Origin: a virus
Lineage: Duplodnaviria > Caudoviricetes
DNA length: 41,921 nt
Reading direction: 5' to 3' (one strand)
Virus record (IMG/VR): IMGVR_UViG_3300031965_001337
Location: 1-41,921 of that record
Part shown: positions 7,073 to 41,449 of the stretch, piece by piece
Layout of the letters: every line of letters begins with the position of its first letter
How positions within the stretch are numbered: the first letter of the stretch is position 1
Program-made: the position numbers and the translations under genes
Notes under the pieces: model-generated
Seen by the model: only the letters and a program-made list of their open reading frames with translations
Told to the model about the DNA's origin: nothing
Databases searched by the model: none

Positions 7073-7254
7073 TGGGCGGCAGCAACTACGGGAAGCTCCA
7101 GAACCAGCGCGCGCGCAAGCGCGTCCTCGCGGACGGCCAGGGCGCGACGCGGCGGCGGCCGAGCCACCGCACCAACTCGCCCCGCCACAAGCGCGCGTTC
7201 CGCGACCTACGACGGCAGCGCGCGCATCGAGATGGAGACGGCGTTGGGCGATAA
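7072..7254 (+). CDS. small basic hypothetical protein
   Basis: TGATG coupling; Arg-rich 60 aa. Confidence 0.35.
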   Translation: MGGSNYGKLQNQRARKRVLADGQGATRRRPSHRTNSPRHKRAFRDLRRQRAHRDGDGVGR

Positions 7255-8356
7255 GACGGGCATCGGCTGGACCGACGCGACGTGGAACCCGATCGCTGGC
7301 TGCACGCGCGTCTCGCCGGGCTGCGCCAACTGCTACGCGCTGACGCTGCACAACCGGCGGTACAAGGCGAACGTGAAGGCGGGGATGATGTGGAGCGGGC
7401 TGCAGGAGGAGGCGCCCCGCCGCCGCATAGTGGGGAGCGAGGGCTGGCCGCAGAACGTGAAACGGGTCGGCCCCCCGCCGGAGGGCTGGGCCGCGCGCGG
7501 ACGCTCGCTCGGCGTGCGAATGCCCATGCCGCCGCAGTACGACCTACCGTTCACGAAGGTGCAGCTGCTGCCGGAGCGCCTCGACCAGCCGCCGCGCTGG
7601 CGGCGCCCGCGTCGCATCTTCGTCAACAGCATGAGCGACCTGTTCCACGAGGACGTGCCCTTTGAGTTTATCGACAGGGTGTTCGGTGCCATGCTTGCCG
7701 CGAAGCGCAACGGGCACAGGTTCCAAATCCTGACGAAGCGCCCGGAGCGAATGCACGAGTACGTAACGCGCGAGTGGAAACGAACCGCCTGCGGCGACCG
7801 CTTCGAGGAAACGTACAGCCACGTCTGGCTCGGCGTCTCGGTCGAGGACCAGGAGCGCGCGGACGAGCGCATCCCGCTGCTGCTCGACACGCCGGCGGCG
7901 GCGCGGTTCATCAGCGCGGAGCCGCTGTTGGGCGCGCTGGACGTGACGCCATGGCTCGGCTGGGACGCCTGCCAACCCGGTGAGGTCTGCGGAAGACACG
8001 CTCGCCTGTCCTGGGTGATCGCCGGCGGCGAGAGCGGCGGGCCGCCCGAGCGACGGCTGGTGCAGGAGTGCGCTCACCGCGGCTTCCAGCGCGCGAACGA
8101 CCTCGAGGTCCTGCCGTGCAAGGAAGACTGCTACCGCTGCCACGGCGCGCAGTGGGAGCCGACGCCGGACGGGCTCGCTTGGGTCAGTTCGCTGCGCGAC
8201 CAGTGCGCCGCCGCCGGCGTCCCCTTCTTCCTGAAGCAGTGGGGCGGTCTGCGGCCCACATCGGGTGGAAGACTTCTCGATGGCCGCGAGTGGAATCAGT
8301 TCCCTGACGGGACGGGCAGCGGGAGCGTGGCAGCGATCGCGAAAGCGGCGGGGTAG
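7232..8356 (+). CDS. DUF5131 (phage Gp37/Gp68) radical-SAM-like protein
   Basis: IGWTDATWNPIAGCTRVSPGCANCYA, IFVNSMSDLFH, FQILTKRPER, WVIAGGESG, FFLKQWG. Confidence 0.93.
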   Translation: METALGDKTGIGWTDATWNPIAGCTRVSPGCANCYALTLHNRRYKANVKAGMMWSGLQEEAPRRRIVGSEGWPQNVKRVGPPPEGWAARGRSLGVRMPMPPQYDLPFTKVQLLPERLDQPPRWRRPRRIFVNSMSDLFHEDVPFEFIDRVFGAMLAAKRNGHRFQILTKRPERMHEYVTREWKRTACGDRFEETYSHVWLGVSVEDQERADERIPLLLDTPAAARFISAEPLLGALDVTPWLGWDACQPGEVCGRHARLSWVIAGGESGGPPERRLVQECAHRGFQRANDLEVLPCKEDCYRCHGAQWEPTPDGLAWVSSLRDQCAAAGVPFFLKQWGGLRPTSGGRLLDGREWNQFPDGTGSGSVAAIAKAAG

Positions 8357-11382: not shown

Positions 11383-11567
11383 CGATCTACCAGGAATGCG
11401 TCCAGGAGCTGAAGGCGGCCGGCGCTCGGGTCCACGACGGCTACGACGTCGTGATCGTGCGCATCGGCGATCGGCGTTTTCCCTTCGACCGCTGGCGCTT
11501 CAACCTGTTCTGCGCGCGCGTCCACGAGCGCACCGAGCATCGCTGCGAAGCGGCGGCGGCCACGTGA
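11379..11567 (+). CDS. hypothetical protein
   Basis: SD GAGGAG; ATGA and GTGA coupling. Confidence 0.55.
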   Translation: MTIYQECVQELKAAGARVHDGYDVVIVRIGDRRFPFDRWRFNLFCARVHERTEHRCEAAAAT

Positions 11568-11923
11568 CGCAGCACCATTGGGCGTTCAACGGGCTGGTCG
11601 GTGAACCGCTCGGCGCGGCGGCCATCCGGAAGCTGCTCGCCGACCTCGTGCGCGTCATCGACATGGCGGCGATCGCCGAGCCGATAGTCTACATCGACGG
11701 CAGCGGCTGGCGCGGCCTGCAGTTGATCGCGGAGTCGCACATCTCGATCCACGGGCAGGGCCGCGACTGCGCGGTCGACGTCTTCTCCTGCCGGCCGTTC
11801 GAGCCGCAGCACGTGCTGTCCTGTCTCGCGCAGTGGATGCCGGGCCGCTGGGTCGGTCAGTGGCTTGAGCGCGGACTGAGCGGCCCACGGCCGGCGCGGA
11901 CGAGACTGGAGCTGGTGGCGTGA
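11564..11923 (+). CDS. speD: S-adenosylmethionine decarboxylase-like pyruvoyl proenzyme
   Basis: LIAESHISIH self-cleavage motif and DVFSC motif. Confidence 0.85.
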   Translation: MTQHHWAFNGLVGEPLGAAAIRKLLADLVRVIDMAAIAEPIVYIDGSGWRGLQLIAESHISIHGQGRDCAVDVFSCRPFEPQHVLSCLAQWMPGRWVGQWLERGLSGPRPARTRLELVA

Positions 11924-13710: not shown

Positions 13711-15461
13711 CACTCACGACGAAGCGGCGGACACCCGCCGCAGCCTCGGCTTCGCCCACCCGCCCGCCGCGCCGGACCCCTCCCCTTCACCCCGTCACCG
13801 CGTACGCGCGAGCCGTCGTGGACGGGAAGATTGTCGCCGGGCAGCTGGTCAAGCTGGCCTGCCGGCGCCACCTCCGCGATCTCCGTGATGCCGGTCGCCG
13901 CGGCCTCGTCTTCGACCAGGATGCGGCGACCGACGCGATCGCCTTTTTCTCGCGCCTCCGCCAGAGCAAGGGCCGGTGGGCTGGTAAGCCGCTCGAGCTG
14001 CGGCCGTGGCAGTCGTTCGTCATTGGCTGCGTGTTCGGCTGGTGCTGGAAGGCGAGCGGGCTGCGGCGGTTCCGGACCGCGTACGTCTCGGTCGCCCGCA
14101 AGAACGGCAAGACGACGCTCGCCGCCGGCGTCGCGCTCTACCTGCTCGACTTCGACAACGAGGCCGGCGCAGAGGTGTACAGTGCGGCGACGAAGCGCGA
14201 CCAGGCGCGCCTCTGCTGGTCCGACGCCCAACGGATGGTAGCGCGCACGCCGGCCCTGAAGCGCCGCATCCGCATCATCGAGTCGCGGGCCAACATGCAC
14301 GTGATCGAGACGGGGTCGAAGTTCGAGGCATTGGGCGCGGACGCCGACACGCTCGACGGCCTGAACCCGCACGCCTACATCATCGACGAGCTGCACGCGC
14401 ACAAGACGCGCCGCGTCGTCGACGTACTCGAGACGTCGACCGGGGCCCGCGAGCAACCGCTGGCCTTCTACATCACGACGGCCGGCCTGGAGCGCGAGTC
14501 GATCTACGCCGAGACGGACGACTACGCGAAGCGGGTGCTCGAGGGCGCGGTCGAGGACGATGCGTACTTCGCGTACATCGCCGCGCTGGACAAGGACGAC
14601 GACTGGCGCCACGAGCGCGTGTACGCCAAAGCCAACCCCAGCCTGGGCGTCACCCTCGCGCTCGCCGACCTGGTCGCCGAGCGCGACAAGGCGATCGTGA
14701 CGCCGGGCCGGATGAACGCGTTCAAGCGCCTGCGCCTGAACATTCGCACGGGCCAGTTCGAGGCCTGGTTCACGCCGGAGCAGATCGACGCCAACCGCTA
14801 CGAGTTCGAGGAGGCCGACCTGGCCGGCTGGGCCTGCTTCGCCGGCCTCGATCTGGCCAGCACGACCGACATCACCACGCTCGTGCTCTGGTTCCCGGAC
14901 GCGGAGGATGGCGGCGGGTGGATCCTCCCCTACTTCTGGGTGCCGGAGGAGGCGGGCCCGCGGCGTTGGGAGCGCGACGCCGTCCCCTACCCGGAGTGGA
15001 TCGAGCAGGGCTTCCTGAAGACGACGCCCGGCAACGTCACCGACTACGACGTGATCCGCGAGGACATCCGCGAGCTGGCCGAGCGGTACGGCATCACGGA
15101 GATCGACTTCGACCCCTGGAACTCGAGCCAGCTGATCAACCAGCTCCAGGAGGACGGCGCAACGTGCGTGAAGATCCGCCAGGGGTTCGCCACGCTCTCC
15201 GCGCCTTCAAAGCAGCTCGAGGCGTTCATCGCCTCCGGGAAGGCCCGCCACAACGGCCACCCCGTGCTGCGCTGGATGCTGCTCAACGCCCAGAAACGGG
15301 AGGACGAACAGGGCAACATCAAGCCGGACCGGAAGCGGAGCGCGGAGAAGATCGACGCCGTCATCGCGCTCGTCACCAGCCTCGCCCGGGCGATCGACCA
15401 GCCGGGAGACGGCCCGTCCGCGTACGAGCAGATGGTCGAGGAAGGCGAGGAGCTGCTGTGA
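13707..15461 (+). CDS. terL: terminase large subunit
   Basis: VARKNGKTT Walker A, IIDELHAH Walker B, ITTAG, GLDLASTTD nuclease, KIDAVIA. Confidence 0.97.
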   Translation: MTLTTKRRTPAAASASPTRPPRRTPPLHPVTAYARAVVDGKIVAGQLVKLACRRHLRDLRDAGRRGLVFDQDAATDAIAFFSRLRQSKGRWAGKPLELRPWQSFVIGCVFGWCWKASGLRRFRTAYVSVARKNGKTTLAAGVALYLLDFDNEAGAEVYSAATKRDQARLCWSDAQRMVARTPALKRRIRIIESRANMHVIETGSKFEALGADADTLDGLNPHAYIIDELHAHKTRRVVDVLETSTGAREQPLAFYITTAGLERESIYAETDDYAKRVLEGAVEDDAYFAYIAALDKDDDWRHERVYAKANPSLGVTLALADLVAERDKAIVTPGRMNAFKRLRLNIRTGQFEAWFTPEQIDANRYEFEEADLAGWACFAGLDLASTTDITTLVLWFPDAEDGGGWILPYFWVPEEAGPRRWERDAVPYPEWIEQGFLKTTPGNVTDYDVIREDIRELAERYGITEIDFDPWNSSQLINQLQEDGATCVKIRQGFATLSAPSKQLEAFIASGKARHNGHPVLRWMLLNAQKREDEQGNIKPDRKRSAEKIDAVIALVTSLARAIDQPGDGPSAYEQMVEEGEELL

Positions 15462-15850
15462 GCAAAAAGGCCAAGGGAAAGAGAACGGGAGCCGGATTCG
15501 TAACGGCCGCGGGCCTGGCGAAACTCATACGCGCGCGAGACGCCGCCAGCCGTGCGCTGGCGAAGATCCGGTCCAGCCTTCCGCCGCCGGCACTGTCCGC
15601 CCGCGCGCGGCCTTGGTGGGGACGCGTCAACGAGCACCTCGACCCGCTGCAGATCCTTACGGAAGCGGACATGGACGCGCTCGTTGCGCTGTGCGAAGCC
15701 TTGGCGGAGTGGCAAGACGCGGCGAACGGAAAGGGCACGCCGGCCAGCGGCGCGAAGGCAATACGCCGCGCCTTACCGCTCTACGAGCGCTTTGGATTGA
15801 CGCCGGCTGCACGAGGAAAGCGAGGGCGGCGGGGGCTTGTAAAGCGGTGA
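15458..15850 (+). CDS. second, terminally altered P27-family small terminase paralog
   Basis: 46/71 identical residues, ungapped, to the TerS core at 13249 (manual count); GTGA coupling to terL. Confidence 0.8.
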   Translation: MSKKAKGKRTGAGFVTAAGLAKLIRARDAASRALAKIRSSLPPPALSARARPWWGRVNEHLDPLQILTEADMDALVALCEALAEWQDAANGKGTPASGAKAIRRALPLYERFGLTPAARGKRGRRGLVKR

Positions 15851-16395
15851 GCGGTGACTTCCTACGCTCACTCATCGCCCAGGGTGAGGAGTGCCAGGAC
15901 CGTCTCTTGTATGCGGTCTACTGCTTGTTGGACGAACACGGGGATGAATGTTCGTGCGGCGCCACCGACGGCAGCTTGGTCGAGGAAATCGAGGCCATCG
16001 CCTTGAAGACGATCCCGCTATGTAGGAGTGAACTGGAGCAGCTCGCCGACAGCGTGGATGAGGTCGCAAACTTACGAGCAGAACGTGACCGCGCTCAGGC
16101 CCGGCTTGCCCGGAGGACGCGAACGATCCCCAAGAGAGTCCGCGAAGCCGTCCTCGTGCGGGACGGGAGGCATTGTCGGTACTGCGGTAGAGATGTCGGA
16201 GACGCAGCCTGGCTCGATCATTATGAACCTGACGGACTGAGCACCGAGGACAATCTAGTCACGGCCTGCAGAACCTGCAACCTCACAAAGGGCCCCGTTC
16301 GGCCGAGAGCCCTGAAGAGACGACGCGGGATGGCATTGTTGGGGAGACGCCCTGAAACCCCACCTCTCTGGGAGGAGGAGAATAGCGTTGCCTGA
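15847..16395 (+). CDS. HNH endonuclease with N-terminal coiled coil
   Basis: IPKRVREAVLVRDGRHCRYCG...LDHYEP...NLVTACRTCNLTKG. Confidence 0.85.
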   Translation: MSGDFLRSLIAQGEECQDRLLYAVYCLLDEHGDECSCGATDGSLVEEIEAIALKTIPLCRSELEQLADSVDEVANLRAERDRAQARLARRTRTIPKRVREAVLVRDGRHCRYCGRDVGDAAWLDHYEPDGLSTEDNLVTACRTCNLTKGPVRPRALKRRRGMALLGRRPETPPLWEEENSVA

Positions 16396-16585
16396 TGAAG
16401 ATCCCGCGCGCCGAACCTGCACCATCGAGGAGGCAGCGCTGTTGCTAGGTATAGGGCGCACGTTGGCGTACGCGCTCGCCAAGCGAGACGAGTTCCCTGT
16501 GCCGCTGATTCGGCTCGGCCGGCGAATTCTCGTTCCAAAGCGGGCGCTGCTGCGCCTGCTGGGCGAAGAGGATGACTCACAATGA
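16388..16585 (+). CDS. excisionase-type (HTH_17) DNA-binding protein
   Basis: TIEEAALLLGIGRTLAYALAKRDEFPVPLIRLGRRILVP; SD GGAGGAG, TTG start. Confidence 0.88.
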   Translation: MPDEDPARRTCTIEEAALLLGIGRTLAYALAKRDEFPVPLIRLGRRILVPKRALLRLLGEEDDSQ

Positions 16586-16881
16586 CGGTCGTGCCGGCCT
16601 CTTTGATAAAGCGCCTACGCCGTGGTATCATATGGGCGGCGAAGGCGGCAGCCCGCGCGGGCAGCGCAGCCCGGCGGATCGCCACCGACACCGACACCTA
16701 CTTTTTCGGCGGCCTCCTGCTGGTCGCCACTGGAGTCGGAGCGATGCACTCGATCCCGCTCGCCGCGATCATCACGGGCTGCGCGCTCATCGCCTTCGCC
16801 GTCTGGATGACGCCGCGGGCGGCGGGGCGCAGCCGAGCCGGGCCGTCCGGAACCGCCCGGTCGCCTGAGGAGGAGCTCTAA
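16582..16881 (+). CDS. small two-TM membrane protein preceding portal
   Basis: hydrophobic FFGGLLLVATGVG and IPLAAIITGCALIAFAVW. Confidence 0.65.
   Translation: MTVVPASLIKRLRRGIIWAAKAAARAGSAARRIATDTDTYFFGGLLLVATGVGAMHSIPLAAIITGCALIAFAVWMTPRAAGRSRAGPSGTARSPEEEL
16603..16631 (+). promoter_or_regulatory. sigma70-type promoter upstream of the portal operon
   Basis: TTGATA-17 nt-TATCAT with extended -10 TG. Confidence 0.5.
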
Positions 16882-18900: not shown

Positions 18901-18990
18901 TGAACATGTTTCCAGATACGATTGTTCAGGATGCGAGAGATGACCAAACGCAAACAGCCCCACGACCGATCTGCAAAGGAGGAACACTCG

Positions 18991-19605
18991 ATGACGACAC
19001 CAACCAGGGAAGAGACGATCGAGCGCCGCATGGTCGCGCTGACCGAGCTGCGCGTCGAGCCGGCCGGCGATGGTGAGGCGGGCATCGGGCGGCTGCTCGG
19101 CCACGCCGGCGTGTTCAACGTGCTGAGCGAGGACCTGGGCGGGTTCCGCGAGCTGGTCCAGCCGGGCGCGTTCATCGAGACGATCGGCGCGGACGACATC
19201 CGCGCGCTGTTCAACCACAACCCGAGCGCCATCCTGGGCCGGAATAAGGCGGGCACGCTCCGGCTCGCCGAGGACCGCGTCGGGCTGGCGATCGACATCC
19301 TGCTGCCCGACACGAGCGTCGCGCGCGACCTGCGCGAGTCGGTCAACCGGGGCGACGTCACGCAAATGTCGTTTGGCTTCCGCGCGCTCGATGACATCTG
19401 GGAGCACACGGCGGAGGATGAGCCCGACCTGCGCCGGCTGCGCAAGGTGCAGCTCTTCGACGTTTCGCCCGCCACCTTCCCGGCCTACCCGCAGACCGAT
19501 ATCGCCGTGAGGTCGCTCGAGGCGTGGCGGGCGGAGCGGGATGCCGCAGCGCGGACGGCGTCCACGCCGCGGCTGGATGCGGCGAAGCGGGCGCTGCTGC
19601 GGTAG
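18991..19605 (+). CDS. HK97-family prohead protease
   Basis: GHAGVFN..SEDLGGFRE, ALFNHN, MSFGF, LFDVSPATFPAYPQT; SD AGGAGG. Confidence 0.95.
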   Translation: MTTPTREETIERRMVALTELRVEPAGDGEAGIGRLLGHAGVFNVLSEDLGGFRELVQPGAFIETIGADDIRALFNHNPSAILGRNKAGTLRLAEDRVGLAIDILLPDTSVARDLRESVNRGDVTQMSFGFRALDDIWEHTAEDEPDLRRLRKVQLFDVSPATFPAYPQTDIAVRSLEAWRAERDAAARTASTPRLDAAKRALLR

Positions 19606-19614
19606 GGGGCAGCG

Positions 19615-19829
19615 GTGGAAAGCGAACCGTTCGTACGCGTCTTGTCGGTGATCTGCCCAGTCCATGGAGAAAGGCTCGGCTCATCTGATCACGTGCAGCG
19701 CCTAACTACATCAGTCCTGTGAGGCGAATCACCGGTGCTGACGGCGCTGGGCCGCAGAGTTGCCGAGACTGCCTGAACGACGGCCGGCCCGAGCCTCACG
19801 GGCTGCTGTTCGCCACAGTCCCCCTCTAG
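19615..19829 (+). pseudogene. frameshifted small zinc-finger ORF (CPVH ... CRDC)
   Basis: GTG 19615 frame gives VICPVHGERLG and stops at 19722; the -1 frame continues ...QSCRDC... to TAG 19829; same GGGGGCAGCG upstream as the zinc-finger ORF at 26574. Confidence 0.4.
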
Positions 19830-19863
19830 CTCAAATCGCGGCGTAAACCGGCATCCCTCCCCC

Positions 19864-19893
19864 TTGACAACCATTCGCTAACCTGCCTATACT
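19864..19893 (+). promoter_or_regulatory. sigma70-type promoter upstream of major capsid gene
   Basis: TTGACA-18 nt-TATACT. Confidence 0.75.
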
Positions 19894-19899
19894 GGCACT

Positions 19900-20053
19900 C
19901 AGAACAAAGGGCGCGCTCCTCGGGGCCGGGATGCTGGCAAGCCGCTGACGCGGCGCCCGACAGGCGCAGACAGCAAGCCCACCCGCTGACGCGAGGCGCT
20001 AGCTGTCGGCAACCGTGAAGAACGGTGCCGGTGGCTAGCGCCCTTTTTGTTTT
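19900..20053 (+). ncRNA. structured 5' leader (attenuator-like) of major capsid gene
   Basis: duplicated GCAAGCC..CGCTGACGCG..GGCGC unit; alternative pairings with the terminator stem. Confidence 0.55.
19995..20053 (+). terminator. intrinsic terminator in capsid leader
   Basis: GGCGCTAGC (19995-20003) / GCTAGCGCC (20034-20042) stem with inner stems, then CTTTTTGTTTT. Confidence 0.75.
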
Positions 20054-20087
20054 GCCCCGGCGCCACGTAGGAGGAGGGCAACACAAC

Positions 20088-21707
20088 GTGAAGCTCCAGA
20101 GGCTCCCAACAACCATCAGGCTGATTATGCTGGCCGCACTCGCGGCGCTCACCACCGCGATGCGGTCGGCGCTCGAGCCGGCGCAGCGCGTGGGCTGGTG
20201 GAACTTCCGGCGCGATGTGCGCCGGCGCGCCGGCCTCTACATCGCGGCCTGGCGCCTGCAGCTGTTCGCCGCACTCCGATTCGCCAACGCAGAGCTGGGG
20301 TCGGTGGCGCTCGGGTCGAAGATCCGCGAGCTGCGCGAAAAGCGGATGACGATGATCACGTCCGCGCGCGAGCTCACCGACAGGGCGCACGAAGAGAATC
20401 GCGACCTGACGACTGAGGAAGAGGCGAAGTTCAACGCCATCTACGGCATCGGCGGCGACGTCAACACGGAAGGCATCAACGCGGAGGAGCGGAGCCGCCG
20501 CCTCGGCGAGCTGGGCCGCCTCGATCTCGCGATCGAGCGCGAGGAGCGGCAGCTCGAGGCGGAGCGGGATGCTGCGACCAACGCGCTGCAGGGGAACGGC
20601 AACGGCGGCGGCGCTGGCGCATCCGACCCGGCCGGCGACCGCCGCGGCAGCGTGCTGCCGGAAGCGGTTCGCCAGTGGCAGGCGAAGCGATCGGGCGAGT
20701 TCCGGTCATTCCTCAGCGACGACGACCGGAACGGCAAGTACGTCTTCGAGCTGCGCCACCTGAACGACGAGGAGCAGGCGGAGATCCGCACCGCCGTCGC
20801 CGCGCTCAGCCCGGTAGAGCGGCGCGCGCTCCAGGCGGACCAGGACATCATGGGCGGCTACACGGTGCAGCCGGAGCAGTTCGTGCCCCGGCTATTGCAG
20901 GCGGTGGACGACGCGCTGTTCATCCGCGGCCTCGCGACCGTCATGCGCCTCGAGAACGCGGACAGTCTCGGCATCCCGTCGCTCGACACCGACCCCGATG
21001 ACGCCGACTGGACGGTCGAGCTCGGCACGGGCAACGAAGACTCTGCGATGCGCTTCGGCAAGCGCGAGCTGAAGCCCCACCCGCTGGCCAAGCGGATCAA
21101 GGTGTCGAAGACGCTGCTGCGCCGGTCCGTGCTGCCGATCGAGAACATCGTGCTGGAGCGCCTCGCGTACAAGACGGGCGTCACGGAGGAGAAGGCGTTC
21201 CTCACCGGCAGCGGCGCGCTTCAGCCGCTCGGCGTCTTCACCGCGAGCGCCGACGGCGTCCCGACCTCGCGCGACGTCAGCACCGGCAACACCACGACCA
21301 GCATCGCGGCCGACGGGCTAATCGAAGCCAAGTACTTCCTGAAGGCGCAGTACTGGCCACGGGCGGTCTGGATGTTCCACCGCGATGCGGTGAAGCAGAT
21401 CGCCAAGCTGAAGGACGGCGACGGGCAGTACATCTGGCAGCCCGGCCTCCAGGCCGGCCAGCCGGACCGTCTCCTCTCCTTCCCGATGCGGGTGAGCGAG
21501 TTCGCGCCCAACACGTTCACGACCGGCCTCTACGTCGGCATCCTGGGCGACTTCGCTCAGTACTGGATCGCCGACGCGCTCTCGATGGAGCTGCAGCGGC
21601 TGGTCGAGCTGTACGCGGAGACGAACCAGACCGGTTTCATCCTGCGCAAGGAGACGGATGGCATGCCCGTCCTGTCCGAGGCGTTCGTTCGGGTGAAGCT
21701 GGCCTAG
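20088..21707 (+). CDS. HK97-fold major capsid protein with long N-terminal extension
   Basis: delta-domain coiled coil, GGYTVQPEQF, EEKAFLTGSG..QPLG, LKDGDGQYIWQPG, GDFAQY; SD GGAGGAGG before GTG 20088. Confidence 0.96.
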   Translation: MKLQRLPTTIRLIMLAALAALTTAMRSALEPAQRVGWWNFRRDVRRRAGLYIAAWRLQLFAALRFANAELGSVALGSKIRELREKRMTMITSARELTDRAHEENRDLTTEEEAKFNAIYGIGGDVNTEGINAEERSRRLGELGRLDLAIEREERQLEAERDAATNALQGNGNGGGAGASDPAGDRRGSVLPEAVRQWQAKRSGEFRSFLSDDDRNGKYVFELRHLNDEEQAEIRTAVAALSPVERRALQADQDIMGGYTVQPEQFVPRLLQAVDDALFIRGLATVMRLENADSLGIPSLDTDPDDADWTVELGTGNEDSAMRFGKRELKPHPLAKRIKVSKTLLRRSVLPIENIVLERLAYKTGVTEEKAFLTGSGALQPLGVFTASADGVPTSRDVSTGNTTTSIAADGLIEAKYFLKAQYWPRAVWMFHRDAVKQIAKLKDGDGQYIWQPGLQAGQPDRLLSFPMRVSEFAPNTFTTGLYVGILGDFAQYWIADALSMELQRLVELYAETNQTGFILRKETDGMPVLSEAFVRVKLA

Positions 21708-21774
21708 TAAGGCCCCGGCGAAGGGGGACACCAGGAAGCGGTTAGCAGGAACAGCTGGGAAGGGAGCAACACCA

Positions 21775-22230
21775 GTGCAGCACCTCACGAACAAGGTCAA
21801 GACGATCCGCGTGCACGCGCCGGTCGCGGCGGGCGCCACCGACATCACCGACTCGGCCGTCATCGACATGCAGGGGTACGAAGGCGTCCGCTTCATCGTG
21901 GGCTTCGGCGCCATCACCGCCGGCGCGGCCACGTCGGTGAAGGCCCAGCAGGCCACCGCGAAGACGAGCGACACCGCGCTCACCAGCGGTGCCGACCTGC
22001 TGGGGTCGAGCATCGCCGTCGCCGACAGCGACGACAGCAAGCTGGTCATCTCCGACATCCTGCGGCCGCGCGAGCGGTACGTGCAGGTGCACGTGCTGCG
22101 CGCGACCCAGAACGCGGTGGTCGACCTGATCATCGCCGAGCTGTACGGCGCGCGTAAGCTCCCGGTCGCGAAGGACACGACCGTCGCGAGCCAGGAGACG
22201 CACGCGTCGCCAGCGGAGGGCACGGCCTAA
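21775..22230 (+). CDS. capsid-associated (decoration/cement-like) protein
   Basis: VIDMQGYEGVRFIVGFG...RYVQV beta-rich protein right after capsid gene. Confidence 0.65.
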   Translation: MQHLTNKVKTIRVHAPVAAGATDITDSAVIDMQGYEGVRFIVGFGAITAGAATSVKAQQATAKTSDTALTSGADLLGSSIAVADSDDSKLVISDILRPRERYVQVHVLRATQNAVVDLIIAELYGARKLPVAKDTTVASQETHASPAEGTA

Positions 22231-22243
22231 GAGCTGACGACTT

Positions 22244-22342
22244 GAGGTAACTCCGAGTCCTTCCACGGGAGGACTAGACCGGGCGGGCTGGGTAGCAATG
22301 GGGTAGCAGGCAACCCACCCTCCGACGCCCACCCGCCCGGTC
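22244..22342 (+). other. intergenic multi-hairpin element
   Basis: GAG-GTAA-CTC; AGTCCTTCC/GGGAGGACT; GACCGGGCGGG (22277-22287) / CCCGCCCGGTC (22332-22342). Confidence 0.45.
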
Positions 22343-22361
22343 GCAGCAAAGGAGAGGAACG

Positions 22362-22814
22362 ATGCCACCAGACGGAACGTACCAGCCCAAGGTGTACCGC
22401 AAGCAGGGCGGCGACGAGCAGGTCATCGCCAGCGGCGGCAAGATCACGCAGGAGGCGGGCGGCAGCTTTGTCCAGCCCGTCGCGCTGAAAACGCTCGACT
22501 ACACCGTGCTCGCCAGCGAAAGCGGCACGACCTTCAAGATCGCCACCGACGCCAAAGTCTTCACGCTGCCGCCAACGGAGGCTGGCCTGCGCTACACGTT
22601 CATCAACAGCGGCGCGGACGGCGCGGTCCTACTCGCCATCTCGCCCGCAGCGGCGGACGCGATCCACGGCCGCGCGCTCACGTCGGTGGACGACAAGGAC
22701 CTGCTGAACACCAAGGTCACGGCGAAGGAGGGCGACTCCGTCACGCTCGTCGGCGACGGCGTCGACGGCTGGTTCATCGTCGCCGTCGAGGGCATCTGGG
22801 CGAAGGAAGCGTAA
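22362..22814 (+). CDS. virion structural protein (head fibre/decoration-like)
   Basis: YQPKVYRKQGGDE, FTLPPTEAGLRYTF, GDSVTLVGDGVDGW; SD GGAGAGG. Confidence 0.6.
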   Translation: MPPDGTYQPKVYRKQGGDEQVIASGGKITQEAGGSFVQPVALKTLDYTVLASESGTTFKIATDAKVFTLPPTEAGLRYTFINSGADGAVLLAISPAAADAIHGRALTSVDDKDLLNTKVTAKEGDSVTLVGDGVDGWFIVAVEGIWAKEA

Positions 22815-22823
22815 AAGGCCGAG

Positions 22824-23246
22824 ATGCGCACGACGCCGTTCCCGAACATCGTCCAGCAGGCGGATGCCGCGCTCAACGACTCGGACAAGACGCTGGTCGT
22901 CCCCGCCGGCAAGCAGTGGGGCCTGCGCAGCGTCTACGCCAAGCTGATCAGCACCGCCACCGTCGGCAACCGCCAGCTCGACGTGCTGATCACGGACGGC
23001 AGCGACAACATCGTCGCGAAGTTCGTCGCCGGCGCGGTGCAGGCGGCCAGCCTGACGAGGGAGTACATCTTCGCGCCGCAGCACCCGCAGGAGGCGGCGT
23101 TCACCGGCGGCGTCATGCTGCGCGCGTTGGCCGGTGAGATCGTGCTGCCGACCGGCTATAAAGTACGCGTGTTCGACAGCGCGGCGATCGATGCCGCAGC
23201 GGACGATCTGACGGTGAGGCTGCTCGTCGAGGAGATGACGGACTAG
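22824..23246 (+). CDS. hypothetical virion protein
   Basis: VVPAGKQW beta-sandwich-like; strong GC3 bias; head module. Confidence 0.6.
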   Translation: MRTTPFPNIVQQADAALNDSDKTLVVPAGKQWGLRSVYAKLISTATVGNRQLDVLITDGSDNIVAKFVAGAVQAASLTREYIFAPQHPQEAAFTGGVMLRALAGEIVLPTGYKVRVFDSAAIDAAADDLTVRLLVEEMTD

Positions 23247-23264
23247 CCGAAGGAGGCAGAGCGG

Positions 23265-23573
23265 ATGGCGATGCGAGTGCGCATGAGGACCACCTACGCC
23301 GGGCCAGCCGGCACGGCCCGCGCCGGCCAGACCATCGAGCTGGAGGACGAGCAGGCGGCAGCGCTGCTCTCGGCCGGCTACGCCGAGGAGGTGGTGGAGC
23401 CGGCGGCCGAGGCCTCCGGTGCGGCTGACGCGACGCCCGCCGACGAGACGGCGACGATCGACCAGCCGGAGACGACGTCGACGCGAACCCGCCGGCCGAC
23501 GCCGAAGGGCGGAGGCCGGCGTAGCGCGCCGCCTGCCTCCGCCAGCGGGACCAGCGACCCCGAGGAGGAGTAA
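23265..23573 (+). CDS. small head-module protein with disordered tail
   Basis: MRVRMRT..AGP...GQTIEL...A..L...GYAE motif; SD AGGAGG. Confidence 0.65.
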   Translation: MAMRVRMRTTYAGPAGTARAGQTIELEDEQAAALLSAGYAEEVVEPAAEASGAADATPADETATIDQPETTSTRTRRPTPKGGGRRSAPPASASGTSDPEEE

Positions 23574-23579
23574 CGCGCC

Positions 23580-24212
23580 ATCGCGATCGGAGACAGCTAC
23601 GCAACGGCGGCCCAGTACCGCGCGCGCACCACGAAGACCGGCGCCACGGATGACGCGACGGTCATCGAGCCGGTGCTCGCCGCCGTGTCGCGCCTGATGG
23701 ACCGCGAGTGCGGGCGCCACTTCACGAAGGACGCGGCGGTCGTCGCCCGCCTCTACGACGGCAACGGCTGCGCGGTGCTGCGCGTCGACGACATCGCGGC
23801 GACGGCCGGGCTAATCGTCAAGGTCGACCTGAACGGCGACTACGACTTCGCCGACGCGGACGAGACGTTGACGATCAACACGCACTACTGGCTCGCGCCG
23901 GCCAACGCGGACAAGGAAGCGGAGGCGGAACCGTGGACACGGCTGGAGATCGTCCCGGACAACGCGGTGATCAGCATCTGGCCGGCGCAGCAGCGGGCGG
24001 TGCAGGTGACGGCCGCGTTCGGCTGGCCGACCGTACCGGGCGGGATCCGCGAGGCGACCATCATGGTGGCCCGCGAGATCCGCGACCTCGAGCAGGCCGG
24101 CATGACACTCGACCTGCAGAATATGGACCAGGTGCAGCAGCTCGCGCCCCAGGCGTTCAGCATGATCCAGCGCATCAAAGCGCAGTACGGGAAGCTGGCG
24201 GTGATCTCGTGA
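23580..24212 (+). CDS. head-tail connector (adaptor) protein, probable ATC start
   Basis: (I)AIGDSYATAAQY...LAAVSRLMDRECGRHF...YDGNG...VTAAFGWPTVP..IREAT; in-frame stop at 23571 and SD GAGGAG 9 nt before ATC. Confidence 0.8.
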   Translation: MAIGDSYATAAQYRARTTKTGATDDATVIEPVLAAVSRLMDRECGRHFTKDAAVVARLYDGNGCAVLRVDDIAATAGLIVKVDLNGDYDFADADETLTINTHYWLAPANADKEAEAEPWTRLEIVPDNAVISIWPAQQRAVQVTAAFGWPTVPGGIREATIMVAREIRDLEQAGMTLDLQNMDQVQQLAPQAFSMIQRIKAQYGKLAVIS

Positions 24213-24727
24213 CGCGCATGTCGGTCGAGGTCGAAGGGATGGAGAGGCTGCTTCGCAACCTGGACGGCGCGGTAGAGCCGGTGTACGGCATGTTCCGCGA
24301 CGTCGTCGACTTCGCCGAGCGCGAGACGGAGGCGGGAGCGAAGCCCCACCCGGTCGACATCGGCAAATTGAGCCGCGGCAACAACATCCGCAGCGAGCTG
24401 GCGCCCCCCGGTACGCCGCTCGCGCAGCTGCGCGGCCGCGTCTACACGAACAGCCCGATCGTGGTGGCGGTGGACCAGGGGCGCCCGCCGGGCAAGATGC
24501 CGCCAATCCGCCTGATTGAGACGTGGGCGGCCCGCCACGGGATCGCGTTCCACCCCGGCCGGGGCCGCAGCCAGCCCAGCGGGTTTCGGATGGCGCGCGC
24601 GATGGGCCGCCGCGGCACGCGCGGCGTGGAGTTCTTCAAGCGCGCGGCGGAGGCGACCGAAGAGGTGATCGAGCGGAAGACGCCTGATGTAGCGCGCGAG
24701 ATCGAGCGCCGCTGGGGGCGGCGCTAA
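24209..24727 (+). CDS. HK97 gp10-like tail completion protein
   Basis: VEVEGMERL, PVDIGKL, GRPPGKMPP...WAARHG, RRGTRG..FF. Confidence 0.75.
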   Translation: MTRMSVEVEGMERLLRNLDGAVEPVYGMFRDVVDFAERETEAGAKPHPVDIGKLSRGNNIRSELAPPGTPLAQLRGRVYTNSPIVVAVDQGRPPGKMPPIRLIETWAARHGIAFHPGRGRSQPSGFRMARAMGRRGTRGVEFFKRAAEATEEVIERKTPDVAREIERRWGRR

Positions 24728-24730
24728 AGC

Positions 24731-25165
24731 ATGGCCTGGAAGCCTGACATCAGAGACGCGCTCGCGGCACGATTGCTGGGTGTCGCCATCACGCTGCCGT
24801 CCACACAGTCGATCGCGAAGGTCTACGCGACACCCCCCGCGACTATCCAAGACGTGCCCTGCTTCATCATCTATCCGCCGCGCCGGGAGGTGAATCGCTC
24901 CGCCGGCACGCGGCAGGTGCTCTACACGGTGCGCTGCCGCTGCCTGGTGCTGGACGCGGACCTCGATGTCGCGGCTGACCTCGCTGACAGCTTCTCAGAG
25001 GCCACGATTGTACGGATGGAAGGCGACTTCAAGTTGGCTGAGGCTCCCGTTGTTGGGCAGACCTGCGAGGAGCCGGCAGCCTTTCGCTATGGCAATACGC
25101 AGTATGCCGGCTTCGATCTGTTGCTGAGGTTGAACGTCTGGGCGGCGATGGCACCCACGCCGTGA
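24731..25165 (+). CDS. putative tail terminator protein
   Basis: size and position before tail tube; IRDALAARL...P..IIYP. Confidence 0.6.
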   Translation: MAWKPDIRDALAARLLGVAITLPSTQSIAKVYATPPATIQDVPCFIIYPPRREVNRSAGTRQVLYTVRCRCLVLDADLDVAADLADSFSEATIVRMEGDFKLAEAPVVGQTCEEPAAFRYGNTQYAGFDLLLRLNVWAAMAPTP

Positions 25166-25188
25166 TGGGCTGAGGGAGGAATGAGACC

Positions 25189-25476
25189 ATGTGGAAGTTC
25201 ATAGCAGCCGGTGACGGCGACAACGCGGCGGCGTTCGCGCTCGGCGCCCACGCCCGCGACCTGACCGACGAGGAGTACAGCGCGGCGGACGCGGCCGGCC
25301 TGCTCGGCGACGAGGCGCGCGCTCTCTTCGAGCACGTGCAGGACAGCGGTGGACCCCACGACGGCGACGCCGGCAGCGGCAGCACGCCCGCCGGCAGCGT
25401 CCTCGCCGCCGGCTCCGAGGCCGCACCCCCGCCGGCAACACCACGCCCGCGCCCGGGCAGGAAGGAAGGTGACTGA
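25189..25476 (+). CDS. small hypothetical protein
   Basis: SD GGAGG; ARDLTDEEY motif; TGATG coupling to tail tube gene. Confidence 0.6.
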   Translation: MWKFIAAGDGDNAAAFALGAHARDLTDEEYSAADAAGLLGDEARALFEHVQDSGGPHDGDAGSGSTPAGSVLAAGSEAAPPPATPRPRPGRKEGD

Positions 25477-26555
25477 TGGCAACGGGAGGAATCCGGGGTC
25501 TACGCAAGGTCCAGCTGGGCAAAGAGGCGACGAAGGGCACGTCCGTCCCGGCGACTGAGCTGCTGCTGGCCGAGGCGGAGGTCCGTGCCAACTTCCCCCT
25601 GTACCGCAACCAGCACCCCTTCGGCATCATGGGCGAGTTCGGCGGGCCGACGAAGACCCTTGCGAAGGACGTCGACATCGGCCTGAAGATGAACGGCGTC
25701 AGCTACGAGCAGCTGACCTGGCTGCTCAACGCGTCGCTCGACGTGCCGATCGACGGCGGCGCGGCCGTGCCGCCGCCCTACCACCACGTCTACGCGAGCG
25801 GCATCGGAGCGGGCGCGGCGCTCATCGAGACGGGCCCGACGCTGCCCGACTCGCTGACGCTGGAAGGCATCTGGACGGACGGGACCGACCCGGAGGAGGT
25901 CGAGATCCCGTACTGCATGGTGCGCTCGCTGACGCTCTCCGGCGACCAGAACGGCGAGCTGCAGGTGAGCGCCGACCTCTTCGGCCGCGACATCGTCGAC
26001 GCGCCCGTCACCGCGCTCGCGCTGCCGACCAACCTGGAGCCGATCGTCGTCGCCGACGGCATCTTCTACATCAACACGACGATGGCGCTCGCCGCGCCCG
26101 CGATCGCGCTCGGCACCTGGGCGGCGCCAGCGGCCGGCTCGTGGGCGGGCAAGATCATCAGCTTCAACCTGGAGGTGGCGACCGGGTTGATGCCGTTCCA
26201 CGGCGTGCGCGGCGCGCTCACCTTCGACCGCCACCAGGAGATCGGCAACAAGAACTTCCGGCTCACCGTGCGGGCGCTGCAGGACGCGGCCGCGTCGAAC
26301 AGCCCGGCGGCCGAGCGAGTCGCGGCCGCGGCCGGCACCATGCGCTTCGTGACGCTGAACTTCGTCGGCAGCGGCAATAAGAAGTTCCGCTTCGCGGGCG
26401 CCTGCAAGCACGAGCAGGGCGACTTCCTCACGATCGGCGAGCAGGACGGTCTCGATGTGGTGGAGATGTCGTTCATCGGCCACTACGACCCGACGGCGGG
26501 CACGCTCGGACGGATGCAGTTCGCCGTGGCGAACGATGAGGCGGCAGCGCCATAA
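25476..26555 (+). CDS. major tail (tube) protein
   Basis: KVQLGKEATKGTSV N-terminus, SLTLE, VRSLTLSG..GELQVSADLFGR; position. Confidence 0.8.
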   Translation: MATGGIRGLRKVQLGKEATKGTSVPATELLLAEAEVRANFPLYRNQHPFGIMGEFGGPTKTLAKDVDIGLKMNGVSYEQLTWLLNASLDVPIDGGAAVPPPYHHVYASGIGAGAALIETGPTLPDSLTLEGIWTDGTDPEEVEIPYCMVRSLTLSGDQNGELQVSADLFGRDIVDAPVTALALPTNLEPIVVADGIFYINTTMALAAPAIALGTWAAPAAGSWAGKIISFNLEVATGLMPFHGVRGALTFDRHQEIGNKNFRLTVRALQDAAASNSPAAERVAAAAGTMRFVTLNFVGSGNKKFRFAGACKHEQGDFLTIGEQDGLDVVEMSFIGHYDPTAGTLGRMQFAVANDEAAAP

Positions 26556-26573
26556 CGGGGGGCAGCGCCTCCC

Positions 26574-26825
26574 GTGATCGGCTTCGCCGTCGAGCTGCGC
26601 TGCCCTGATTGCCGGGCGTTCTTCGGCACGATCACCATGAGTCCGACTGCGCCCGGCGTCATGCTGGGGCTCCACTGCCGGACCCGCGCCTGTCGCGGCA
26701 AGCAGCAGGTGGTGTTCTACGTCGACGCCGGCCGGGCCAGGGCCTTGACAGGCGACGAACGGGCTGCTATTGTGGCAGGGCAAGAGGGCGCACTCGCCAA
26801 CGCGCCTGACCATATAGGAGGCTGA
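26574..26825 (+). CDS. Com-like zinc-ribbon protein
   Basis: ELRCPDCRAFFG...LHCRTRAC resembles Mu Com-family CxxC...Cx(n)C. Confidence 0.65.
   Translation: MIGFAVELRCPDCRAFFGTITMSPTAPGVMLGLHCRTRACRGKQQVVFYVDAGRARALTGDERAAIVAGQEGALANAPDHIGG
26745..26773 (+). promoter_or_regulatory. sigma70-type promoter inside the Com-like ORF
   Basis: TTGACA-17 nt-TATTGT with extended -10 TG. Confidence 0.7.
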
Positions 26826-26833
26826 GCCGCTAG

Positions 26834-26875
26834 AGCGGCCCGAACATCCCAAGGGTGTCGGGCCGCTTTTTGTTT
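26834..26875 (+). terminator. intrinsic terminator upstream of tail chaperone gene
   Basis: AGCGGCCCGA (26834-26843) / TCGGGCCGCT (26858-26867) then TTTTGTTT. Confidence 0.8.
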
Positions 26876-26907
26876 GCGAGCAGACGGAAAGGGAAGGAGC
26901 AATCAGG

Positions 26908-27447
26908 GTGATCGTCACGAAGCTACAGCCAGAAGAGCGGGAGGTGCCGCACGAGCCGGGCAACTACCTCTCGTTCCGCTGCCTCTCCGGCCTTCAGCTC
27001 GAGGAGGCGGAGGCGGCGAGCACGCGCGAGCTGGTCGAGCGCATGGGCGCGGAGACGCTGCACGCGTTGCGACCGCCCACGCCGCCCGCCAACGGCGCCA
27101 AGGGCCGCGCAGCTGCCGCCGTGGACGAAGTCGACGAGGCGCGACGGAAGGACCCGCTCATCGGGTACAGCCCGGCAAAGCTTATCGAGTTCGGCCTCGT
27201 CTCCTGGCGCGGCCCGAACTACGACGACGTGCCGATGCCGATCGCGGCCGCCAGCCGGGCCGGCGACGCCTCCGTCGCGGAAACGAAGGCCGGCCTGCTC
27301 GACAAGCCGACGCTGCGCTGGGCCGCGCTGCAGGTGCTCGAGGTGAGCCGGATCACGGAGGGGGAAGGGTCGAGCTCCGGGCGTGGTTCCGACCGAACGA
27401 GCGTTACGGCCGCCACCCCCCGGAGCGACTCGGAAGAAAGTGGCTAG
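26908..27447 (+). CDS. tail assembly chaperone
   Basis: between tail tube and tape measure; GLVSW motif; slippery site near 3' end. Confidence 0.7.
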   Translation: MIVTKLQPEEREVPHEPGNYLSFRCLSGLQLEEAEAASTRELVERMGAETLHALRPPTPPANGAKGRAAAAVDEVDEARRKDPLIGYSPAKLIEFGLVSWRGPNYDDVPMPIAAASRAGDASVAETKAGLLDKPTLRWAALQVLEVSRITEGEGSSSGRGSDRTSVTAATPRSDSEESG

Positions 27448-27635
27448 CCATCGTCGAGGCGCACCAGCTGTTTCGCGCCGAGGTGCGCTTCACGCTGGCG
27501 GAATGGGATGAGCTGCCCAACACGGTGCGCGAGGCGGCGCTGCTCGTGCGGCAGTGGACGGAGGAGCTGAAGAACGATGCAACGGACCGCGCGATCGCGG
27601 AAGCGAAGGCGAAGTCGCCGAGGCGGCAGCGCTGA
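27360..27635 (+). CDS. -1 frameshift extension of the tail assembly chaperone (G-T type)
   Basis: G-GGG-GAA at 27360-27366 in chaperone frame; -1 frame open to 27635 (FTLAEWDELP...). Confidence 0.6.
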   Translation, partial: GGRVELRAWFRPNERYGRHPPERLGRKWLAIVEAHQLFRAEVRFTLAEWDELPNTVREAALLVRQWTEELKNDATDRAIAEAKAKSPRRQR

Positions 27636-41037: not shown

Positions 41038-41291
41038 CCGTTCTCCTTCGGCGGGTCTGCTGCCAAGAGCGACAACGAGGCCAGCTCGTCGGCAGGGATG
41101 TCATACAGGAGGGAAAAGGCCATAATGTGCCGTCGCCGGGGCTCCCCACTGATGCCTTCCTCGATGGCGTAGATCGTTCCTCGTTTGATGGGGCGGCCGA
41201 GACGTTCGCTCTCTTCAGCCGCCTCATCGAGCGTCCAGCCCCGGCGGGTGCGCTCCTCATAGAGCCTCTGTCCGAGGGGCGGTCTCTCCAC
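40980..41291 (-). CDS. XRE-family HTH repressor (CI-like), likely leaderless GTG start
   Basis: LGQRLYEERTRRGWTLDEAAE...TIYAIEEG...P...FSLLYDIPADEL. Confidence 0.8.
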   Translation of the reverse strand: MERPPLGQRLYEERTRRGWTLDEAAEESERLGRPIKRGTIYAIEEGISGEPRRRHIMAFSLLYDIPADELASLSLLAADPPKENGRRNAPGGSRRGTATASTS

Positions 41292-41298
41292 AGCCCTA

Positions 41299-41327
41299 AT
41301 TCTAGGCCGGCCAATGCGCTTTGTCAA
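41299..41327 (-). promoter_or_regulatory. leftward sigma70 promoter for repressor operon
   Basis: TTGACA-17 nt-TAGAAT on the minus strand; GTG start 7 nt after -10. Confidence 0.8.
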
Positions 41328-41357
41328 ATTGCGTTGAAAAGTCGCCATCATCCCCCC

Positions 41358-41386
41358 TTGACAACAGCTATTCAATGTGCTTGAAT
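41358..41386 (+). promoter_or_regulatory. rightward (early lytic) promoter
   Basis: TTGACA-17 nt-TTGAAT; divergent from repressor promoter. Confidence 0.55.
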
Positions 41387-41388
41387 AG
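41368..41388. promoter_or_regulatory. operator-like palindrome
   Basis: CTATTCAA-TGTGC-TTGAATAG perfect inverted repeat over the rightward -10. Confidence 0.7.
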
Positions 41389-41449
41389 GCTCCATGACTA
41401 CGGCACGGATGCCTAAACGCGTTATCGAAGTTGGAGCGGAAGGAGCGCC

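What the first reader, a model, noticed from the sequence alone, without database searches (positions are those of the whole stretch)
19605..26907. Twice-repeated zinc-finger / promoter / hairpin / terminator module gating head and tail genes (candidate antitermination system)
Seen: two late-region loci (19605-20087 and 26558-26907) share one layout. Each has GGGGGCAGCG, a small Cys-rich ORF, a TTGACA promoter at or near the ORF end, GGCA..AGGGCGC, CCGC-N4-GCG hairpin(s) (GCCGC-TGAC-GCGGC 19941, CCGC-TGAC-GCG 19983, GCCGC-TAGA-GCGGC 26826), a terminator ending CTTTTTGTTT, then a structural gene. At 26826-26839 the small hairpin and the terminator stem are mutually exclusive. Known: Mu Com is a zinc-finger RNA-binding activator; BglG and ANTAR proteins antiterminate by stabilising hairpins overlapping a terminator. 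Inference: strong host promoters are held off by terminators until the Com-like protein binds the hairpins.
Basis: partly seen in the sequence, partly recalled or inferred. Interest (0 to 1): 0.85.

Follow-up and report, generated by a model that had tools for sequence, protein, structure and literature searches.

The report
Two RNA gates for virion genes
This uncultured phage has a consensus promoter and a predicted transcription stop signal before its capsid gene and again before its tail-building genes, but the two are different RNAs: the tail one carries a hairpin shaped like the target of phage Mu's Com protein just behind a small zinc-ribbon gene that likely opens it, while the capsid one is an uncatalogued either/or fold shared with five related phages and likely opened by another, still unidentified factor.

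Summary
The promoter-leader-terminator layout is real at both sites (2 observed, 0 in 200 shuffles), but it is not one module repeated.

Leader 1 (before the capsid gene) is a ~155-nt RNA found in six related phages. It has no Rfam match, no Com motif, and no zinc finger beside it: the Cys-rich ORF at locus 1 is not supported.

Leader 2 (before the tail chaperone) follows a genuine four-cysteine ORF whose 3' end holds the promoter. It carries a Com-operator-like hairpin overlapping the terminator. The closest relative has two Com-consensus hairpins there; five other tube-bearing relatives lack the cassette. The protein is not shown to belong to the Com family.

Best model: a serial cascade. 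An unknown factor opens gate 1, the zinc ribbon is then made, and it opens gate 2. All mechanism is inferred; no RNA data were available. This scan has reported Com-gated terminators in other genomes; I found none in six literature searches. New variant of a known kind.

The parts
18922..19605 (+). Prohead protease gene, upstream boundary of gate 1
   Evidence: PF04586 E 4e-45
19606..19863 (.). Window-specific 258-nt spacer; not a zinc-finger gene
   Evidence: No score on zinc-ribbon profiles; in 5 of 5 relatives with leader 1 the -35 box lies within about 20 nt of the protease stop or overlaps it; same letters in run X1's contig, which may be the same source data
19864..19893 (+). Promoter P1, TTGACA-18-TATACT (predicted)
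   Evidence: TTGAC box at the same place in L001, L010, L014, L125, L105
19913..19967 (+). Leader 1 domain 1: closing stem with two inner hairpins (three-way junction; includes the GCCGC-UGAC-GCGGC hairpin)
   Evidence: Folds in truncated leaders; 2 of 4 counted outer pairs and 2 of 5 pairs of the first inner hairpin change on both sides
19969..20007 (+). Leader 1 domain 2: predicted antiterminator, basal helix GACAGC/GCUGUC, conserved core CCCRCC...GCGC..AG, variable apical loop
   Evidence: 100% of cells paired, 4 of 6 pairs compensatory in 5 phages; core invariant columns in 6
19995..20053 (+). Predicted intrinsic terminator T1; its 5' arm is the 3' strand of domain 2
   Evidence: MFE fold in 5 of 5 full leaders; terminator state 4.5 kcal/mol more stable than forced antiterminator
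20089..21707 (+). HK97-type major capsid gene (539 aa from GTG 20089)
   Evidence: PF05065; P0003 539 aa
25476..26555 (+). Tail tube gene, upstream boundary of gate 2
   Evidence: PF18906 E 1e-5, under cut-off
26574..26825 (+). Four-cysteine zinc-ribbon-like ORF (83 aa), candidate antiterminator protein
   Evidence: Family of 21 with C35, C40 invariant and C10, C13 nearly so; AlphaFold beta-rich model, pLDDT 78.7
26745..26773 (+). Promoter P2, TTGACA-17-TATTGT, inside the ORF's 3' end (predicted)
   Evidence: L-T invariant in 21 of 21 and L-T-x6-[IM]-hydrophobic in 20 of 21 family members; G001 has a promoter in its ORF end in another frame
26824..26839 (+). Com-operator-like hairpin GA-GCCGC-UAGA-GCGGC; first GA overlaps the ORF's stop codon
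   Evidence: Only such hairpin with a U run behind it in the window; two changes from the Com bipartite consensus (PMC6483171)
26835..26875 (+). Predicted intrinsic terminator T2
   Evidence: 6.8 kcal/mol more stable than the fold with the small hairpin forced
26908..27635 (+). Tail assembly chaperone with predicted -1 frameshift extension, first gene behind gate 2
   Evidence: Position between tube and tape measure; GGGGGAAG at about 27360; homologue in G001

Best explanation
The phage places a consensus sigma-70-type promoter and a predicted intrinsic terminator before its capsid gene and again before its tail-chaperone gene, and these likely act as two different RNA switches in series: an unidentified, probably phage-made factor would hold the conserved antiterminator stem of leader 1 and let transcription into the head-neck-tube block, whose last gene, a zinc-ribbon protein, would then bind the Com-type hairpin of leader 2 and open the chaperone, tape-measure and later genes. 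SHOWN by sequence or comparison: both promoter-terminator layouts; the overlap of each small fold with its terminator's 5' arm; covariation of the leader-1 antiterminator; the two leaders being unrelated; the zinc-ribbon ORF starting upstream of P2, so that it can only be made from transcripts that have passed T1 (no other consensus promoter lies between). INFERRED: that the promoters fire and the terminators stop RNA polymerase; that termination is the default state; that the zinc ribbon binds RNA and binds this hairpin; that a protein holds domain 2 of leader 1, in the manner of a RAT hairpin.
For: Layout beyond chance. Leader 1 is present before the capsid gene in W, L001, L010, L014, L125, which form one capsid clade (SH 94), and in L105 (E 3e-4). 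Truncated leaders fold the antiterminator in 5 of 5 and full leaders the terminator in 5 of 5. The named structure has 8 of 19 pairs changed on both sides, 92.6% of cells paired against 18-49% for slid controls, 0 of 500 shuffles reaching the covariation score; the same switch strand keeps 100% pairing in the central 5 terminator pairs. For gate 2: the syntenic, terminally repeated relative G001 has a four-Cys ORF after the tube, a promoter in its end, and the only tandem pair of Com-consensus hairpins on the forward strand of its 39 kb, the second forming the terminator's 5' arm. The architecture GA-stem-loop ending in GA-stem with a U run behind occurs once in the window, once in G001, both at leader 2, and never in the G002 contig that lacks the cassette; shuffles give 0.03 and 0.02. 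Com binds CC(N)2-3GAG in a hairpin loop, with a bipartite GAG(N)2CC consensus (PMC6483171, first part of text and passages). Zinc ribbon and leader 2 go together: both present in 2 of 7 assessable tube-bearing loci, both absent in 5 of 7.
Against: Only two phages give DNA for gate 2, so there is no covariation test. The window's hairpin departs from the Com consensus (4-nt loop; G for the first C of each CC; no strict bipartite match), the relaxed bipartite pattern occurs 7 times in the window, and the architecture test was defined after seeing both cases. The protein has no PF10122 hit; its likeness to Mu Com is one 15-column knuckle at probability 27%, and even its likeness to the G001 protein is weak (probability 1.7%). 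The L-T-x6-I/M signature could also be a helix cap rather than a promoter. Leader-1 statistics rest on five related sequences and a structure derived from them; the terminator pairs do not beat the shuffle control (109 of 500); L010 and L125 have weak U runs. No candidate ligand for leader 1 was identified among genes shared by the window, G001 and the G002 contig.
Confidence: 0.5

Rival explanations
1. One zinc-ribbon protein opens both gates by reading C-UGAC-G / C-UAGA-G type hairpins, as a positive feedback loop.
For: In the window both leaders hold GC-rich hairpins closed by C-G with U..GA-like loops; the window and G001 each carry both gates and the ORF; leader-1 domain 2 has CC...GAG flanking its apical hairpin in 5 of 6 members.
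Against: Leaders unrelated; loops not conserved; no Com-type hairpin architecture in any of 6 leader-1 copies; the 46.7-kb G002 contig has leader 1 but tube directly followed by chaperone, and no hit to the family profile or PF10122 over cut-off, though it has another small zinc-ribbon ORF far upstream and the profile is narrow; the GAG also pairs with the terminator base.
Confidence: 0.15
2. Leader 1 is a small-molecule riboswitch or a host-protein site (two structured domains followed by an expression platform), tying capsid synthesis to host state; gate 2 is as in the best model.
For: Riboswitch-like anatomy: promoter, three-way junction, internal-loop stem with invariant core, overlapping terminator; kept at 52-69% capsid identity; no adjacent regulator gene.
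Against: No Rfam match at gathering or E 10 level; sequence conservation is confined to about 12 positions of domain 2; no convincing host-gene copy in 150 further genomes of G002's class (4 weak hits, none with the leader layout).
Confidence: 0.12
3. Gate 2 is opened by the ribosome, not the protein: on long transcripts a ribosome ending at the ORF's stop (26823-26825) covers the terminator's 5' arm 10 nt further on, while P2 transcripts lack the start codon and terminate.
For: Stop codon overlaps the hairpin and lies 10 nt from the stem; classical translation-coupled attenuation (established knowledge).
Against: In G001 the ORF ends about 75-90 nt before the hairpins; four cysteines are conserved across 21 proteins, which a mere leader ORF would not need; it leaves P2 without a purpose.
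Confidence: 0.1
4. Both terminators are overridden by processive, lambda-Q-like antitermination loaded at the promoter DNA, or are simply leaky and set gene dosage; the alternative folds are incidental.
For: Consensus promoter plus short terminated leader is the lambda pR'-tR' layout (established knowledge); many other capsid relatives have promoter-leader-terminator units of unrelated sequence; G001 has a further promoter-terminator before its packaging genes.
Against: Compensatory changes in the antiterminator helix are not needed for a plain terminator; promoter spacers share no sequence by eye; no Q-family hit among the 51 ORFs scanned.
Confidence: 0.13

Closest known systems
Phage Mu Com and its operator in com-mom mRNA (PF10122; PMC6483171, first part of the text and passages read; PMC3299994, passages read)
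   Same: Small four-Cys zinc protein encoded just upstream of its presumed RNA site on the same transcript; hairpin with GA before the stem and GA at the loop's 3' end, closed by C-G, overlapping an inhibitory stem; 9-nt period between the two GAG in the window.
   Different: The inhibitory stem here is a predicted transcription terminator, not a translation-inhibition structure; targets are tail genes; promoter is consensus and lies inside the gene; Cys spacing is C-x2-C-x21-C-x4-C against C-x2-C-x16-C-x2-C; the window's loop is 4 nt.
BglG/SacY/LicT antiterminators with RAT hairpins (recalled, not tested against sequences)
   Same: Leader 1 domain 2 is a stem with internal loops and a variable apical loop whose 3' strand is the terminator's 5' arm.
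   Different: No CAT/PRD-type protein among 51 ORFs scanned; no Rfam match; an extra three-way-junction domain precedes it; it gates a capsid gene.
Lambdoid late control: pR', 6S leader, tR', Q (recalled)
   Same: Consensus host promoter held off by a terminator in front of virion genes.
   Different: Two internal gates instead of one at the head of the late operon; covarying RNA alternative fold; no Q hit.
P2 Ogr / P4 Delta late activators (PF04606; Cys spacing and DNA site recalled)
   Same: Small phage C4 zinc protein with a C-x4-C second knuckle near late genes.
   Different: No PF04606 match in the window or G001; no TGT-N12-ACA within one mismatch in the 60 nt before five promoters; promoters already have a perfect -35 box.

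Membership tests
Com (Zn_ribbon_Com, PF10122) | Match to the family profile | tested here: not met
   No hit at E<=1 for 10 members of A2 and 13 further family proteins or in six frames of G000 and G001. Caveat: a Com-looking ORF of L144 (my judgement) also missed PF10122, so the model is narrow.
Com (Zn_ribbon_Com, PF10122) | Four zinc-binding cysteines in two knuckles | tested here: met
   C10, C13, C35, C40 conserved in the 21-member alignment; spacing differs from Mu Com.
Com (Zn_ribbon_Com, PF10122) | Profile or fold likeness to Mu Com | tested here: inconclusive
   hhalign probability 27% over 15 columns; fold searches gave no E<=0.001 and best Z 3.9, rmsd 4.5, 61 aligned.
Com (Zn_ribbon_Com, PF10122) | Operator CC(N)2-3GAG in a hairpin loop next to an inhibitory stem | tested here: inconclusive
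   Met in G001 leader 2 (two hairpins); variant with 4-nt loop in the window's leader 2; absent from leader 1 of the window and G001.
Com (Zn_ribbon_Com, PF10122) | Binds its RNA and activates translation | not testable with these tools
   Needs binding and reporter assays; anatomy points to termination control instead.
RAT/BglG-type antitermination | Antiterminator hairpin overlapping a terminator's 5' arm | tested here: met
   Leader 1 domain 2.
RAT/BglG-type antitermination | RAT sequence and a CAT-domain protein | tested here: not met
   No Rfam hit; no such Pfam domain in 51 ORFs scanned, chosen from 251 listed.
ANTAR tandem-hairpin system | ANTAR protein and twin conserved hexaloop hairpins | tested here: not met
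   No ANTAR domain in the 51 ORFs scanned; loops are 3-4 nt and vary.
Ogr/Delta activators (PF04606) | Profile match and TGT-N12-ACA site upstream of late promoters | tested here: not met
Described RNA families (Rfam 15) | Covariance-model match at gathering score | tested here: not met
   0 in the whole window; best E 2.7 for 19800-20120.

The most novel reading that the evidence does not exclude
Late genes here are timed by a two-tier, RNA-level cascade on always-on host promoters: an uncatalogued two-domain leader (three-way junction plus internal-loop stem) acts as a sensor switch for capsid transcription, possibly a phage-borne riboswitch for a host signal, and its output includes a new zinc-ribbon RNA-binding antiterminator, with specificity shifted from Com's, that licenses tail completion and lysis only after head genes are on.
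Probability: 0.2. Interest if true: 0.85.

Novelty: new variant of a known kind. Interest (0 to 1): 0.58.

Why it matters
Many temperate phages lack a recognisable late activator. If true, this shows late genes can be timed by stacking RNA switches on constitutive promoters, with Com-type zinc ribbons acting on termination rather than translation, and it would give an order (heads and tube first, chaperone, tape measure and lysis later) built into transcription. Both gates are under 200 nt with consensus promoters and an 83-aa protein, so they can be tested directly in laboratory reporter strains, and the window/G001 pair offers a natural specificity swap. Leader 1 adds a new conserved RNA motif whose ligand is an open question.

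Tried and rejected
Locus-1 ORF as a broken zinc finger: rejected. GGGGGCAGCG, AGGGCGC and UGAC loops as shared signals: rejected. Model R2 on 199 of the roughly 217 capsid-relative loci (seeds and mostly duplicates left out) gave one new member, L105; the 21.8-bit hit in L060/L067 lies far upstream of the capsid start and was not counted. Searches for DNA around the zinc-ribbon family failed: viral scans gave nothing or 4 spurious antisense matches; 400 Chloroflexota genomes gave one stop-ridden hit; none in GenBank phages. 400 further genomes of G002's class held no other member of the capsid clade. Fold searches with the AlphaFold model, the PDB sequence search and the Atlas gave only generic zinc-ribbon neighbours; this excludes nothing. 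A hairpin hiding the capsid Shine-Dalgarno site is predicted in several members (pairing 0.41-1.0) but equally in 53 control loci, so it was dropped. No RNA holder listed. Literature: six full-text searches returned no paper on Com-type control of terminators, seen as listings and abstract starts only; PMC10690425 was read as passages, and three leader-1 motifs were not found in 6 of its supplements, but 3 large files were not searched and may hold this RNA; bioRxiv supplements were not available.
Full report
Setting. The window is a whole 41.9-kb virus record classed as a provirus, 69.6% G+C, with an HK97-type head module, tube, tape measure and amidase. Its closest relative, G001 (L001), is a 39-kb record with terminal repeats, syntenic over most of its length, capsid 69% and tube 28% identical. 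The nearest prophage in a named genome lies in a Dehalococcoidaceae MAG (L125), so a Chloroflexota host is plausible but inferred; L105 lies in an Actinomycetes MAG.

What holds. Two consensus promoters (19864, 26745) are each followed by a long GC stem and TTTTTGTTT, a 9-mer found nowhere else on the strand. The combination occurs twice and never in 200 dinucleotide shuffles. The leaders fold better than shuffles (z -2.8, -2.6). Run X1's contig has the same letters at both loci, though it may be the source data.

What fails. The two loci are not one module. Leaders and cassettes align at background level and a leader-1 covariance model does not see leader 2. The locus-1 ORFs have one and two cysteines; no frameshifted read-through scores above background on the zinc-ribbon profiles. 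The 258-nt spacer is peculiar to the window: in 5 of 5 relatives the promoter abuts the protease stop. The short shared words are common in this GC-rich sequence.

Gate 1. Among capsid relatives the leader is found in L001, L010, L014, L125, which with the window form one clade (SH 94), and in L105 from another branch. Cut just after the switch strand, 5 of 5 fold a 5' multi-stem domain (three-way junction in four, differently drawn in L014) and a second stem with internal loops; at full length 5 of 5 fold the terminator, which takes that stem's 3' strand. The basal helix of the second stem is paired in every cell with 4 of 6 pairs compensatory; overall 8 of 19 pairs change on both sides, and slid controls pair at 18-49% against 92.6%. 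The terminator's central five pairs are also 100% paired, mostly through G-U wobble, but the terminator set does not beat its shuffle control. The apical loop varies; the invariant part is CCC.CC and G...GCGC..G around the internal loops. These counts rest on five related sequences and a structure drawn from them.

Gate 2. ORF 26574 belongs to a family of 21 proteins, modelled as a beta-rich domain plus a helix. Its end encodes the promoter in frame, and 20 of 21 members keep L-T-x6-[IM]-hydrophobic, the translation expected of TTGACA-17-TATNNT; a helix cap could explain part of this. G001 has a four-Cys ORF in the same place with a promoter in its end in another frame. Mu Com binds CC(N)2-3GAG in a hairpin loop, with a bipartite GAG(N)2CC consensus (PMC6483171; first part of the text and passages). 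G001's leader holds the only tandem pair of such hairpins on its forward strand, the second forming the terminator's 5' arm. The window has GA-GCCGC-UAGA-GCGGC, the same architecture with a loop one base shorter. That architecture with a U run behind occurs once in each genome, at leader 2, against 0.02-0.03 in shuffles, and not in the G002 contig; the test was framed after seeing both cases. Terminator folds are favoured by 6.8 (window) and 11.3 kcal/mol (G001). ORF and leader are both present in 2 of 7 assessable tube-bearing loci and both absent in L119, L125, L327, L342, L352; L029 is cut off and was not counted. Against: the protein is not shown to be a Com, its kinship to the G001 protein is weak, and no more DNA contexts could be fetched.

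Mechanism. The ORF begins upstream of P2, and no other consensus promoter lies between T1 and it, so it is likely made only once T1 is passed. L125's contig keeps gate 1 without gate 2. The simplest reading is a series: an unknown factor stabilises leader-1 domain 2, the head-neck-tube block and the zinc ribbon are made, and the zinc ribbon binds its hairpin to open T2. The anatomy is shown; firing, termination, binding and order are inferred. Rivals are one protein for both gates, a metabolite or host ligand for gate 1, ribosome occlusion at gate 2, and Q-like or leaky read-through.

Novelty. It works like Com-operator control moved to termination, and like RAT antitermination, but fails or leaves open membership in each. 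Six literature searches found no description; PMC3299994 (passages) describes Com homologues only before mom-like genes. This scan has noted Com-gated terminators and terminator/antiterminator leaders before virion genes in other genomes; those notes are unchecked and are not counted as support. What this case adds is the split into two unrelated gates, a zinc-ribbon family outside PF10122, and a new covarying leader. Verdict: new variant of a known kind, interest 0.58.

Noticed in passing
window 16603-16631 (+): Third promoter-like site (TTGATA-17-TATCAT, with TG) just after the small HTH_17 gene 16388-16585 and before the portal gene; a T5 run at 16702 but no strong stem seen.
   Followed up: no
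window 41098-41390: Divergent promoter-like sites (41327 minus strand, TTGACA at 41358 plus strand) between oppositely oriented ORFs that are also in G001; likely the immunity switch region.
   Followed up: no
window 20089-20312: The capsid ORF as called carries about 75 extra N-terminal residues relative to relatives, whose capsids start at the 'IRELREKR'-like motif.
   Followed up: no
window 15552-15850, overlapping ORF 14006-15850: A second terminase small-subunit-like stretch behind the large subunit, followed by an HNH ORF.
   Followed up: no
window about 27355-27370: GGGGGAAG slippery site in the tail chaperone; GGGGGAA also seen at chaperone ends of L125, L327 and L342.
   Followed up: partly
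L001 2900-3260: G001 has a further promoter and U-tailed hairpin before its packaging genes, right after an ORF that looks by eye like a RinA/ArpU-type late regulator (label recalled, not tested).
   Followed up: no
L013, L060, L118, L160, L327, L342, L367, upstream of capsid: Other capsid relatives carry promoter-leader-terminator units of unrelated sequence; L342 has a tandem repeat in its leader, L327 an HTH-type ORF before the promoter.
   Followed up: partly
L144 8386-8830: Dehalococcoidia prophage with a Com-looking ORF (C-x2-C-x15-C-x2-C), then a TTGACA box and a leader holding CC-CC-GAG before a U run; no PF10122 hit.
   Followed up: partly
P0128 (protein only): A 152-aa protein with two tandem copies of this zinc-ribbon domain, on a 71-kb contig.
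   Followed up: no
window 11396-11923 and 7232-8356: S-adenosylmethionine decarboxylase-like and DUF5131 genes, both shared with G001.
   Followed up: no
window 20021-20081, run X1 record 7: A short low-depth contig in the same run matches the end of terminator 1 and the region behind it with few differences, hinting at another relative with this leader.
   Followed up: no
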